This document shows positions 56,801-64,000 of a stretch of 64,000 nucleotides of DNA, piece after piece. The position numbers were made by a program, and so were the translations under genes. Position 1 is the stretch's first letter; the number at the start of each line of letters is the position of its first letter. The stretch spans positions 16,704,001 to 16,768,000 of the forward strand of contig CP086569.2 in NCBI GenBank assembly GCA_009914755.4, given 5' to 3'. The stretch is from the human T2T-CHM13v2.0 reference genome, Homo sapiens. The notes below the pieces were generated by a model. It was not told where the DNA came from. It worked only from the letters and a program-made list of their open reading frames with translations, and searched no databases.

Positions 56801-59800
56801 AACATCACAACTAAAAGAACTAGAGAAGCGAGAGCAAACAAACTCAAAAGCTAGCAGGCGACAAGCAATGACTAAGATCAAAGAAGAAATGAAGGAAATG
56901 GAGACATGAAAAACCCTTCAAAAAATCAATGAATCCAGACTGGTTTTTTGAAAAGATTAACAAAACAGATAGACCACTAGCCAGACTAACAAAGAAGAAT
57001 AAAAGTAAGAATAACCAAACAGACACAATAAAAAATGTTAAAGGGATATCACTGCTGATCTCACAAGAATACAAACTACCATCAGAGAATAGTATAAACA
57101 CCTCTATGTAAATAAACTAGAAAATCTAGAAGAAATGGATAAATTCCCATGAGTAGACTAGGAAGAAGCCAAATCCCTGAATAGACCAATAACAAGTTCG
57201 GCAATTGAGGCAGTAATTAATAGTCTACAAACCAAAAAAAGTACAGGACCAGACAGATTCACAGCCAAATTCCAACCGAGGTAACAAGCGGAGCTGGTAC
57301 CATTCCTTCTGAAAGTATTTCAAATAATATAAAAAGAGGGACTCCTCCCTAACTCATTTTATGAGGCCAGCATCATTCTGATAACAAAACCTGTCAGAGA
57401 CACAACAAAAACAAAATTCCAGGCAAATATCCTTGATGAACATTGAAGCAAATATCCTCAATAAAATACTGGCAAACCGAATCCAAGAGCAATTTAAAAA
57501 ACATATGGACCACGAGCAAGTGAGCTTATCCCTGGGATGGAAGGCTGGTCCAACATATGCAAATCAATAAATGTAATCCATCACATAAACAAATCCAATG
57601 GCAAAGACCACGTGATTATCTCAAAAGAGGCAGAAAAGGCCTTCAATAAAATTTAACAAACTTTCATGCTAAAAGCACTCAATAAGTTAGGTATTGATGG
57701 AACATTTGTTAAACTAATAAGAGCTATTTATGAAAAACCCACAGGCAATATCATAGTAAATGGACAAAAGCTGGAAGCATTCCTTTTGAAAACTGACATA
57801 AGACAAGGATGCCCTCTCTCACCACTCCTATTCAACATAGTATTGGAAGTTCTGGCCAGGGCAATCAGGCAAGAGAAATAAATAAAGGTATTCAAATAGG
57901 AAGAGAGGAAATCAAATTGTCTCTGTTCGCAGATGACATAATCGGATATTTAGAAAACCCCATCGTCTCAGCCCAAAATCTTCTTTAGCTGATAAGCAAT
58001 GTCAGCGAAGTCTCACGATACAAAATCAATGTGCAAAAATCACAAGCATTCCTATACACATATATTAGACAAACAGAGAGCCAAATCATGAGTGAACTCC
58101 CATTCACAATAGCTACAAAGAGAATAAAATGCCTAGGAATACAACTTACAAGGGATGTGAAGGACCTCTTCAAGGAGAACTACAAACCACTGTTTGAGGA
58201 AATAACAGAGGACACAAACAAATGGAAAAACATGTCACACTCATGGATAGGAAGAATTAATATTGTGAAAATGGCCATACTGCCCAAAGTAATTTACAGA
58301 CTCAATGCTATCCCCATCAAGCTACCATTGAATTTCTTCACAGAATTAGAAAAAAGCTACTTTAAATTTCCTATGGAACCAGCAAAGTTCCTGTGTAGCC
58401 AAGATGGTCCTAAACGAAAAGAACAAAGCTGGAGGCATCATGCTACCTGACTTCATGCTATGCTATTGGGCTACAGTAACCAATACAGCATGGTTGTGGT
58501 ACCAAAACAGATATATAGACCAACGGGATAGAAAAGAGGCCTCAGAAATAACACCACACGTCTACAGCCATCTGTCTTTGACAGACCTGACAAAAAACCA
58601 AGCAATGGGAAAAGGATTCGCTATTTAACAAATGGTGTTGGAAAAACTGTCTAGTCATCCCCTGGACCCCTGCCCTACACCTTATACAAAAATTAACTCA
58701 AGATGGATTAAAAATTTAAATGTAAGTCCTAAAACCATAAAAACCCTAGAAGAAAACCTAGGCTATACCATTCAGGACATAGGCATGGGCAAAGACTTCA
58801 TAACTAAAACACCAAAAGCAATGCCAACAAAAGCCAGAATTGACAAATGTTATACAATTAAATTAAAGAGCTTCTGCACAGCAAAATAAAATATCATCAT
58901 GGATAACAGGAAATCTTCAGAATGGGAGAAAATTTTTCAATCTATCCATCTGACAAAGGGCTAACATCGAGAATCTACAAAGAACTTAAACAACCTTACA
59001 GGAATAAAACAAACAACCCATCAAAACGTGAGTGAAGGATATGAACAGACACTTCTCAAAAGAAGACATTTATGTGACCAACAAACATATGAAAAAAGAA
59101 GCTCATAATCACTGGTCATTAGAGAAATGCAAATCAAAACCACAATGAGATATCATCTCACACCAGTTAGAATGGTGATCATTAAAAAGTCTGGAAACAA
59201 CTGATGCTGGAGAAAATGTAGAGAAATAAGAACACTTTTACATGGTTGGTGGGAGTGTCAATTAGTTCAATCATTGTGAAGACTATGTGGTGATTCCTCA
59301 AGGATCTAGAAGCATTTAACCAGCAATCCCATTACTGCATATATACCAGAAGAGTTAAAAATCATTTTACTTTAAAGACAGGTGCACACATATGTTTATT
59401 GCAGAACTGTTCCCAATAGCAAAGACTTGGAACCAACCCAAATGCCCATCAATGTTAGACTGGATAAAGAAAATGTGGCACATGTATAATAAGGAATACT
59501 ATGCAGCCACAAAAAGAATGAGTTCATGTCTTTTCCATCATCATGGATGAAGCTGGAAACCATCATTTTCAGCAAACTTACACAGGAACAGCAAACCAAA
59601 CACTGCATGTTCTCACTCATAAGTAGGAGTTGAACAATGAGAACATATGGCCACAAAGAGAGGAACATCACACACTGTGACCTGTGAGGGGGTGGGGAGA
59701 GAGATAGGGGATAGCATTAGGAGAAATACCTAGTGTAGATGACGGGTTGATGGGTGCAGCAAGCCAGCATGGCACATGTTTACCTACGCAACAAACCTGC

Positions 59801-62272: not shown

Positions 62273-63189
62273 GATAAGATTTGCTAATATCTTCTATCTG
62301 TGACTCCTCACAGTAAACCTAGATGCCTATTGTGTGACAGATGAAATGGAGATTTAGGACAGTCAGTAATTTGTGTTACTTTTAAGGGAGAGCCAGAATC
62401 CAAATATTTGTATAAATGATGTAGGTTTTGGGCTACAAATGGACCAATCTATCACCTGCGATTCCTTGATAAGGATAGTGCCCAGGAATGAAATGAGGAG
62501 CTGCTGGTGTATGACACAGGATATGGTGAGACTCTGCGGTGAGTGAGGTATGCTCTAGAAGCCTTGTGAGGACTCTGTTGCAAGCAGTGACAACTGCTCT
62601 GAGAATCTGTGACTATCCTGAGGTTGACCTGATAGGGCCAGGAGATTGCATCCCTTCTTAGGAAACAATCTGGTAGCCATTCATAATCCATTTATCTTGA
62701 TGATATACTGATTGTTGTGTCTAATTGAGGAAGAAAATGGAATAAAAATGAATAAGAAAAGCCTGGGTTGAAAAGTTATTGGCAAGCTAATTTGAATGGA
62801 GTATAATTAAAAATATGTAAGGAAGTTCCCCTATAAGACAAGAGCATGCTATTGTAAATAGTGCTGCATAATGAATATATTGTAAATAAGGCATATATTG
62901 TATTTCTGTCTCATTGCTGCAGGGGTTCCTGAAATCAGTCTTCTTTAATCCTAGATATCGAAACTCCCTGTACTCATGGTGGGCAACCCCACACTCTATG
63001 CCGGTTTTGTGTTTCACTATGTAGATGCAGCTGATGTTTAAAGTTCTACAGTTGCAGATATCCCTAGATCTTGTTGGAAAATTCAGCACAAAAACCTAAT
63101 ATTGTAACTTTCATAGCACCTACAAGGTGGGGTCTAGACCTACTAGGGACCTTACAGAGGCAGGTTCTTATTACCATGGTTTCTCCTGG

Positions 63190-63998
63190 TGTGGTCTTTT
63201 CTTTTTTAATTTTAGAGACAGTGTCTCACTCAGAGTTCAGTAGTGTAATTATACATCATGGCAACCTTGAACTCCTTGGCTCAAGTAATCCTCCCACCTC
63301 AGCCCCCTGAGAAGCTGGGATTAAAGGTGCTTGCCACCTTGAAGAGAGGGGGACTTGCTACGTTGGCCAGGCTGGCCTCAAAGTCTTGGGCTCAAATGAT
63401 CCTCCCACCTCAGCCTCTTGAGTAGCTGGAACTTAAGTTGCCTGCCAGCTTGTAGATACTAAGTCTGGCTATGTTGCTCATGGTGGCCTTGAACTCTGTG
63501 TTTAAGTCATCCTCCCACTTCAGCTCCCTGTGTAGCTGGAACTGAAGGTGCCTGCCACCCTGCAGAGAGGGGGTCTCCCTACGTTACTCAGGCTGGCCTC
63601 AAACTTTTGGGCTCAAGTGATCCTCCAACCTTATATGAGTAGCTGGAAATGAAAGTACATGCCACCTTGTGGAGAAGGGATCTTTCTATGTCACACAGGC
63701 TGGGCTCAAACTCTTAGGCTCAAGTGATCACCCCACCTTAGCGTTCTGCATAGCTGGAACTAAAAGCACCATGCCACCTTATAGAGATGTTGCCTATGTT
63801 GCCGAGGCTGGCTTCAGACTCCTGGGCTCAAGCAATCCTTTCACCTCAGCCTCCTGAGTAGCTGGAACTAAAGGTGCTTGCCACATTTTAAAGATGGGGT
63901 CTTGTTACCCAGGCTAGCCTTGAAATCTTGGGCCCAAGTGATCCTCCTTTTCAGCCTCCCAAAGCACAGGGAATACAGGGGTGAGCCACTCCCTGGCC
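63190..63998 (-). repeat. Alu-derived tandem array: about 7 copies of an antisense Alu-monomer-like unit of about 108 bp, capped by an Alu 5' end at the window edge
   Basis: The unit '…agagagggggtctccctacgttactcaggctggcctcaaacttttgggctcaagtgatcctcc(c/a)acct(c/t)agcctc(c/t)tgagtagctggaa(c/a)t(g/a)aaggtgc(c/t)tgccacc…' recurs with 'gccac' landmarks at about 63333, 63444, 63554, 63661, 63773, 63879 and 63985, a spacing of 106-112 bp. The array begins with a T-rich tail 'ggtcttttcttttttaattttagagacagtgtctcactcagagttcagtag' and ends with 'cctcccaaagcacagggaatacaggggtgagccactccctggcc', an antisense Alu 5' terminus. Confidence 0.85.
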
Positions 63999-64000
63999 AT

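What the first reader, a model, noticed from the sequence alone, without database searches (positions are those of the whole stretch)
63190..64000. Alu internally expanded into a roughly 108-bp, 7-unit tandem array (satellite-like Alu derivative)
A normal Alu is a dimer of about 300 bp. Here the antisense Alu at the right edge of the window carries the segment between the homologous 'ggaggc(c/t)gaggc' positions of its left and right monomers repeated about 7 times head to tail. Unit length is 106-112 bp and units are mutually diverged by roughly 10-20%, so the expansion is old. It is flanked by a normal Alu tail (T-run at 63190) and a normal Alu 5' end (63998). The likely origin is unequal crossover or replication slippage between the two homologous monomers of a single Alu, followed by further expansion. 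Such Alu-derived minisatellites are uncommon and can be length-polymorphic or unstable. The array may continue beyond the window end.
Basis: seen in the sequence. Interest (0 to 1): 0.5.

Follow-up and report, generated by a model that had tools for sequence, protein, structure and literature searches.

The report
Ancient AluJ with five extra monomers
One very old antisense AluJ element at the right edge of the window has its monomer repeated head to tail as a 111-bp array; this is a real but ordinary, long-decayed example of the well-known class of Alu-derived tandem repeats.

Summary
Tandem Repeats Finder reports period 111, 5.8 copies, 71% matches and score 508 at 63270-63902, the strongest tandem repeat in the window. 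The structure, read on the + strand (the element is on the minus strand), has four parts:
- a T-rich tail (63197-63213);
- one right-monomer unit;
- five hybrid units of 107-112 bp;
- one left-monomer unit ending in the Alu 5' end at 63998.

All six junctions read GCCACC|TTGTAGAGA and lack about 24 bp (the A-rich linker plus the start of the right monomer). An AluJ hybrid monomer carrying that deletion is exactly 111 bp, which explains why the period is 111 and not the usual 135.

There are no internal A/T tails, so independent insertions are excluded. Units are only 73-82% identical (mean 76%), 4 CpGs remain of about 50 expected, and the longest exact match shared between units is 17 bp. Only 2 non-CpG changes are shared by all five hybrid units, against 5-9 private ones each. 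The expansion was therefore early, it is ancient (about AluJ/AluS-boundary age), and the array has not been homogenised since.

It is a neutral fossil. It is unlikely to be unstable today, and it does not continue past the window end. Alu-derived minisatellites number in the thousands. Interest is low.

The parts
63197..63213 (-). Alu 3' A-rich tail, read as TTTTCTTTTTTAATTTT on the + strand. It is the only A/T run of 5 or more bases in the whole element.
   Evidence: Sequence; run scan (single run at 63202).
63214..63338 (-). Unit u0: a right-monomer-type unit that keeps a degraded copy of the 31-bp right-monomer-specific segment. Its last ~76 bp (63263-63338) are already in register with the array.
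   Evidence: Alignments; weak Metazoa_SRP hit at 63155-63342 on the minus strand.
63339..63449 (-). Hybrid unit u1 (111 bp).
63450..63559 (-). Hybrid unit u2 (110 bp).
63560..63666 (-). Hybrid unit u3 (107 bp, with a 4-bp deletion).
   Evidence: groups with u4 in 79% of NJ bootstraps.
63667..63778 (-). Hybrid unit u4 (112 bp).
   Evidence: weak SRP hit at 63670-63774 on the minus strand.
63779..63885 (-). Hybrid unit u5 (107 bp).
   Evidence: SRP hit at 63782-63881 on the minus strand, E=0.073.
63886..63998 (-). Unit u6: a left-monomer-type unit (CCCAAAGCAC.GGGAATACAGGGGTGAGCCAC) that ends with the Alu 5' end, GGCC, at 63995-63998.
   Evidence: best Metazoa_SRP hit at 63890-63997 on the minus strand, 20.9 bits, E=0.0043.
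63270..63902 (.). The periodic stretch as called by TRF: period 111, 5.8 copies, 71% matches, score 508.
63332..63347 (.). First of six junctions of the form GCCACC|TTGTAGAGA that lack the ~24-bp linker. The other junctions fall at 63449/63450, 63559/63560, 63666/63667, 63778/63779 and 63885/63886.
   Evidence: motif search (4 matches with at most 1 mismatch, all in the array, 0.02 expected by chance); 25-column gap against in-window Alus.

Best explanation
A single AluJ element inserted in antisense orientation. It already carried, or soon acquired, a ~24-bp deletion that removed the A-rich linker and the first bases of the right monomer. Its left and right monomers, which in AluJ share a long near-identical block, then misaligned, either by unequal sister-chromatid or homologue exchange or by replication slippage. 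That produced a third, hybrid monomer offset by 135 - 24 = 111 bp. The then-identical 111-bp units allowed a few more rounds of unequal exchange, which raised the number of hybrid units to five. Expansion then stopped, and the units have decayed independently and neutrally ever since. The array has no demonstrated function; it is a fossil of an old local expansion.

Shown: the periodicity, the hybrid anatomy, the shared deletion, the lack of internal tails, and the early timing relative to the element's age.
Inferred: the molecular mechanism (crossover versus slippage), the absolute age, and neutrality.
For: - Periodicity: TRF gives period 111 x 5.8 copies, score 508; self-BLAST gives diagonals at multiples of ~111.
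- Anatomy: right monomer with tail, five hybrid units, then left monomer with the 5' end.
- Predicted unit length: an AluJ left/right hybrid with the linker removed is exactly 111 bp and aligns end to end with u1-u5.
- Shared deletion: the linker is absent at all six junctions, and the junction motif occurs nowhere else in the window.
- AluJ type: GGGCTCAAG(C/T)GATCC and GTCTCGCTA(T/C)GTTGC motifs.
- Homology for misalignment: the typed AluJo left and right monomers share a 29-bp exact block, against 16 bp in AluSx and 8 bp in AluY.
- Timing: 2 non-CpG substitutions are shared by all five hybrids, against 5-9 private ones each. Several CpGs decayed to TG in some units and CA in others, so they were intact when the units separated.
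- Age: per-unit non-CpG divergence from AluJ is 12.6-18.9%, the same range as ordinary AluJ copies in this window (12-21%) and above its AluS copies (6-12.6%). Per-lineage non-CpG divergence between units is 11.7%.
- No homogenisation: all diagonals are ~72% identical.
Against: - The target-site duplication of the whole element cannot be checked, because only 2 bases follow the Alu 5' end. That it was one insertion is therefore inferred from a single tail plus a single 5' end.
Searches support the main points independently, but individual 'stem' substitutions could be source-gene variants.
- No primate genome could be searched, so uniqueness of the locus and its conservation across species are untested.
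- Unequal crossover and slippage cannot be told apart from the sequence.
Confidence: 0.85

Rival explanations
1. The multimer was made at or before insertion rather than in situ. Either the L1 reverse transcriptase switched template repeatedly between the homologous left and right monomer segments of one Alu RNA during target-primed reverse transcription, or a multimeric Alu source gene was retrotransposed.
For: The pre-expansion 'stem' is very short: 2 non-CpG changes shared by all units, 4 shared CpG-position changes, and the linker deletion. All of these could be source-gene variants, so the interval between insertion and expansion could be zero. Ahmed & Liang (PMC3389668) suggest that initiation of some TE-derived tandem repeats is linked to retrotransposition.
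Against: No other copy of the junction or the unit exists in the window or in the scanned collections, although those collections are microbial and so say little. The unit tree has weak internal structure ((u3,u4) at 79%, plus u1 at 73%), which suggests stepwise rather than single-event origin. In-situ unequal exchange is the established route for such arrays.
Confidence: 0.09
2. The region is a pile-up of independent insertions of Alu elements or free Alu monomers (FLAM/FRAM) next to or into each other.
For: Alus cluster, and tandem pairs are common (PMC3592446). RepeatMasker would probably list several partial Alu hits here.
Against: There is only one A/T run of 5 or more bases in 803 bp. 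All six junctions fall at the same two Alu positions and share the same ~24-bp deletion. The units are left/right hybrids, not any free-monomer type. Spacing is regular at 107-112 bp.
Confidence: 0.02
3. The array is a still-active, length-polymorphic minisatellite (VNTR), or a functional element such as a source of exonised splice sites or an Alu-derived miRNA cluster.
For: Roughly 20% of human minisatellites vary in copy number (PMC8096271). Weak sub-threshold matches to Alu-derived miRNA families were seen (mir-1285, 24.6 bits against a gathering score of 56).
Against: Units are 76% identical on average, the longest shared exact match is 17 bp, and there is no homogenisation. CpGs are almost fully decayed, with 4 left of ~50 expected. 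The whole window gives no Rfam match at gathering score. All miRNA-family matches are far below threshold and are what any Alu gives.
Confidence: 0.04

Closest known systems
Alu-derived minisatellites / TE-derived tandem repeats in the human genome (Jurka & Gentles 2006, Gene 365:21, as cited in PMC3389668; Ahmed & Liang 2012, PMC3389668)
   Same: Part of a single Alu is repeated head to tail in situ. Initiation occurs between direct repeats inside the element, followed by local expansion. AluJ-derived arrays tend to have more copies than arrays from younger Alus.
   Different: The catalogued arrays were selected for at least 95% identity between units and average 2.3-2.4 copies. This array is a decayed one (76% identity) with 5.8 copies. 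Its unit is a whole hybrid monomer (111 bp), and the 'direct repeats' are the two Alu monomers themselves.
The normal dimeric Alu (left monomer, A-rich linker, right monomer; 135-bp left/right offset, PMC3592446)
   Same: The terminal units are a normal right monomer with its tail and a normal left monomer with its 5' end. The sequence is of AluJ type.
   Different: There are five extra hybrid monomers, the A5TACA6 linker and the first bases of the right monomer are deleted at every junction, and the offset is 111 bp rather than 135 bp.
Free Alu monomers (FLAM/FRAM) and monomer-derived gene clusters such as snaR (PMC3045588, PMC3337139)
   Same: Monomer-sized, 7SL-derived units occur in more than two copies at one place.
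   Different: FLAM and FRAM are dispersed retroposed monomers, each with its own tail. snaR genes are spread by segmental duplication of much larger units. The units here are tail-less left/right hybrids that abut directly.
Classical satellite DNA and the SVA VNTR
   Same: Tandem organisation; the SVA element also contains antisense Alu-like sequence.
   Different: This array is only 0.63 kb at a single locus in this window and is not homogenised. The SVA VNTR unit is not Alu-derived and measures 35-50 bp (from general knowledge).

Membership tests
Alu SINE (AluJ subfamily) | Sequence derived from the 7SL RNA Alu domain | tested here: met
   BLAST to Alu consensus sequences, alignment to intact in-window Alus, and sub-threshold Metazoa_SRP matches on the minus strand in u0, u4, u5 and u6 (best 20.9 bits, E=0.0043).
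Alu SINE (AluJ subfamily) | Dimer of a left monomer and a right monomer, the right one carrying a 31-bp extra segment | tested here: met
   u0 keeps the right-specific segment and u6 is left-type. Five hybrid monomers lie between them.
Alu SINE (AluJ subfamily) | A-rich linker (A5TACA6) between the monomers | tested here: not met
   About 24 bp, including the linker, is absent at all six junctions. This is read as a deletion in the founder copy.
Alu SINE (AluJ subfamily) | 3' A-rich tail | tested here: met
   T-rich run at 63197-63213 on the + strand.
Alu SINE (AluJ subfamily) | Flanking target-site duplication | not testable with these tools
   Only 2 bases (AT) follow the Alu 5' end before the window ends.
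Alu SINE (AluJ subfamily) | AluJ-diagnostic bases (GCTTGAGCCCAGGAG rather than the AluS CCTGAGGTCAGGAG; CATAGCGAGACCCC) | tested here: met
   All units carry GGGCTCAAG.GATCC and GTCTCGCTA.GTTGC on the + strand. The best BLAST subfamily is AluJo.
TE-derived tandem repeat / Alu-derived minisatellite | At least 2 head-to-tail copies of a unit of at least 20 bp that is at least 70% similar to a TE consensus | tested here: met
   5.8 copies of 111 bp. Units differ from the AluJ hybrid at 12.6-18.9% of non-CpG sites.
TE-derived tandem repeat / Alu-derived minisatellite | At least 95% identity between units (the catalogue filter of Ahmed & Liang 2012) | tested here: not met
   Mean identity is 76%. 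This array would have been missed by that catalogue, though it fits the class by origin.
Polymorphic VNTR | Copy number varies between individuals | not testable with these tools
   No population or primate assemblies were available. The sequence argues against it (17-bp longest exact match).
Satellite DNA | Long, homogenised, usually multi-locus arrays | tested here: not met
   The array is 0.63 kb, all diagonals are ~72% identical with no higher-order structure, and the junction motif is found only here in the window.

The most novel reading that the evidence does not exclude
The five extra monomers were created in the insertion event itself, by repeated reverse-transcriptase template switching between the homologous left and right monomer segments of one Alu RNA, or came from a multimeric Alu source gene. 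On this reading the locus records a retrotransposition-coupled route to tandem repeats rather than later unequal crossover. The very short pre-expansion stem does not exclude this.
Probability: 0.08. Interest if true: 0.4.

Novelty: new member of a known kind. Interest (0 to 1): 0.15.

Why it matters
It matters little in itself. It is a clean textbook example of how the internal left/right homology of an Alu, strongest in AluJ, can seed a monomer-sized tandem array, and of how such an array freezes and decays once its units diverge. It also shows that catalogues requiring at least 95% identity between units miss old TE-derived arrays. For genome annotation, the region should be read as one rearranged AluJ rather than several Alu fragments. 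Nothing suggests a function or present-day instability.

Tried and rejected
1. Other copies or the same locus elsewhere. The unique flank and two versions of the deletion-bearing junction gave 0 hits in the metagenome and prokaryotic genome collections. These collections are microbial, so the result says nothing about primate genomes.
2. Two-unit (221-bp) higher-order structure. This was suggested by the lag-221 autocorrelation peak and by 84% identity between 63283-63410 and 63504-63631. I rejected it because self-BLAST diagonals at 111, 222 and 332 are all ~72% identical, and the tree supports only (u3,u4) at 79% and (u1,(u3,u4)) at 73%.
3. Pinning the crossover to GGAGGC(C/T)GAGGC through the 'CCCAC' state. 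I rejected this because that state is normal in AluJ right monomers of this window (5 of 8).
4. Rfam. Nothing in the whole window reaches gathering score. In the array there are only sub-threshold SRP and Alu-derived miRNA-family matches.
5. Pfam scan of the long ORFs near the array, to annotate the surroundings. It found no family at E<=0.001, so their L1 ORF2 identity rests on memory only.
6. First fuzzy-regex extraction of right-monomer motifs. It picked up left monomers by mistake, and I replaced it with alignment-based extraction.

Full report
**Context.** The window is catarrhine primate DNA. The window is AT-rich, at 32-42% GC. No Rfam family reaches gathering score anywhere in it.

- Tandem Repeats Finder reports a period-111 array at 63270-63902, with 5.8 copies, 71% matches, 3% indels and score 508. 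It is the highest-scoring tandem repeat in the window.
- None of the ordinary Alu dimers in the window produces a TRF row with a period of 100-170.
- The repeat finder gives families with start-to-start spacings of 106-111 bp or about twice that, 218-221 bp.
- Self-BLAST gives parallel diagonals at offsets 111, 222, 332, 439, 547 and 653. The first is 591 bp long at 72% identity.
- Base autocorrelation at lags 111 and 221 (0.371 and 0.385) exceeds the maximum over all lags in 300 shuffles (0.334).

**Anatomy.** I cut the region at the recurring GCCACC|TTG junction and aligned the pieces to the antisense left and right AluJ monomers. Read on the + strand, with the element on the minus strand, the order is:
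- a T-rich tail at 63197-63213;
- u0 (to 63338), a right-monomer-type unit that still carries a degraded copy of the 31-bp right-specific segment;
- five units, u1-u5 (63339-63449, 63450-63559, 63560-63666, 63667-63778, 63779-63885), of 111, 110, 107, 112 and 107 bp;
- u6 (63886-63998), a left-monomer-type unit ending in the Alu 5' end, GGCC, at 63995-63998.

In the sense orientation u1-u5 start like a right monomer (GGTGGCA.GCACC...CCAGCTACTC) and end like a left monomer (..GAG.CCAGCCTG.GCAAC.TAGCGAGACCCC.TCTCTACAA, without the 31-bp segment). This is the product expected when the right monomer of one chromatid pairs with the left monomer of the other. Two checks that do not rely on my typed consensus agree:
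- Alignment to two intact Alus from this window shows the same register and a 25-column gap at the first junction.
- Rfam's Metazoa_SRP model gives weak, sub-threshold hits on the minus strand in u0, u4, u5 and u6 (best 20.9 bits, E=0.0043).

**Why 111 bp and not 135.** The normal left/right offset in an Alu is 135 bp (PMC3592446). Here every one of the six junctions reads GCCACC|TTGTAGAGA, with minor variants. Each lacks about 24 bp (antisense ACGCCCGGCTAATTTTTGTATTTT), which is the A-rich linker plus the first bases of the right monomer. A hybrid built from the AluJ consensus with this deletion is exactly 111 bp and aligns end to end with u1-u5. The outermost junctions (u0/u1 and u5/u6) also lack the linker, so the deletion was in the founder copy before the first duplication. 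The junction motif occurs four times with at most one mismatch, all inside the array, against 0.02 expected by chance and none in the other Alus.

**Independent insertions are excluded.** The 803-bp element has a single A/T run of 5 or more bases, the tail at 63202. All junctions fall at the same two Alu positions, and the internal units are hybrids rather than any free-monomer type.

**Where the exchange happened.** I first thought the 'CCTCCCACCTC' state was left-monomer-specific. However, u0, the right monomer, has it too, and alignment-based extraction shows that 5 of 8 AluJ right monomers in this window carry the GAGGTGGGAGG-type state. The exchange can therefore only be placed within the roughly 43-bp segment common to both monomers, between CAGCTACTC and GAG|(A/G)CCAGCC. 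In the typed AluJo consensus the two monomers share a 29-bp exact block there, against 16 bp in AluSx and 8 bp in AluY. This gives a plausible reason why an AluJ is a good substrate. That last point rests on consensus sequences from memory.

**Age and history.**
- The hybrid units are 72.6-81.9% identical to each other (mean 76.2%).
- Only 4 CpGs remain where about 50 would be expected from composition.
- Against the AluJ hybrid, each unit differs at 12.6-18.9% of non-CpG sites. That matches ordinary AluJ copies in the same window (12-21%) and exceeds its AluS (6-12.6%) and AluY (2-7%) copies.
- Only 2 non-CpG substitutions are shared by all five hybrids, plus 1 shared by four, while each unit has 5-9 private ones.
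- Several CpGs became TG in some units and CA in others, for example TCTCGAAC and AAGCGATCC. They were therefore still intact when the units separated.
- Per-lineage non-CpG divergence between units is 11.7%, at the AluS/AluJ boundary for this window.

The expansion therefore happened early in the life of the element. By inference from the generally accepted ages of AluS and AluJ, that was tens of millions of years ago, probably before or around the catarrhine radiation. The unit tree is nearly star-like, with (u3,u4) at 79% and (u1,(u3,u4)) at 73% bootstrap. All self-alignment diagonals have about the same identity, so there is no higher-order repeat and no later homogenisation.

**Consequences.**
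- The longest exact match shared by two units is 17 bp. This offers very little substrate for further unequal exchange or slippage, so the suggestion that the array is unstable or length-polymorphic is unlikely, though untested.
- The array does not run on beyond the window, because the Alu 5' end is reached two bases before the end.
- For the same reason, the target-site duplication cannot be examined.

**Comparison with what is known.** Alu-derived tandem repeats are a described class. Jurka & Gentles (2006) showed minisatellites arising inside Alus between short direct repeats. Ahmed & Liang (2012, PMC3389668) found 7,276 TE-derived mini/satellites in the human genome, with AluJ-derived arrays averaging 2.4 copies and some reaching 15 or more copies. 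A later review counts 2,663 of them as Alu-associated (PMC9659126). That catalogue required at least 95% identity between units, so an old array like this one would not be in it. By origin it belongs to the same kind. What is slightly unusual is that the unit is a whole hybrid monomer and that there are five extra copies. It is not a satellite: it is short, occurs at one locus in this window, and is not homogenised.

**What could not be done.** No primate genome, RepeatMasker library or population data were available. Scans of the microbial collections for the flank and for the junction found nothing and are uninformative. The main open alternative is that the multimer arose at insertion, through reverse-transcriptase template switching or a multimeric source gene. 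The short pre-expansion stem does not exclude this. I give it under 10%.

**Verdict.** It is an ordinary, ancient, decayed member of a well-known class. Interest is 0.15.

Noticed in passing
window 32582-32686: A young, homogeneous minisatellite: 23-bp unit TGTATCTGTAACAGATACAGACT x 4.6 copies at 98% matches. The unit is internally palindromic (TGTATCTGT / ACAGATACA) and abuts the T-tail of the antisense AluS at 32715-33004. It is a much better candidate for a length-polymorphic, hairpin-forming repeat than the Alu array.
   Followed up: partly
window 14179-14430 and 41604-41783: Long (AAAG)n (65 copies) and (GAAA)n (45 copies) microsatellites lie directly after the tails of an AluY (13896-14185) and an AluJ (41133-41399). 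These are typical Alu-tail-derived microsatellites.
   Followed up: no
window 11237-11571: The youngest Alu in the window: an AluY 94% identical to consensus, with 2.2% non-CpG divergence, that still carries a 54-base A-tail at 92% purity.
   Followed up: no
window 44660-45181 (-), 46014-46688 (+), 58031-58450 (+): ORFs of 139-224 aa whose translations look like L1 ORF2 fragments from memory, but Pfam gave no family at E<=0.001. The identification is unconfirmed.
   Followed up: partly
window 4792-5230 and 35513-35610: AT-rich low-complexity blocks, (TA)n and derived 13-40-bp periods. These are ordinary.
   Followed up: no
window 63784-63841 (-): A sub-threshold match to the Alu-derived miRNA family mir-1285 (24.6 bits against a gathering score of 56, E=0.037) inside unit u5. 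Weaker matches to this and other Alu-derived miRNA families occur in other units. This is what any Alu sequence gives and is not evidence of a miRNA gene.
   Followed up: no
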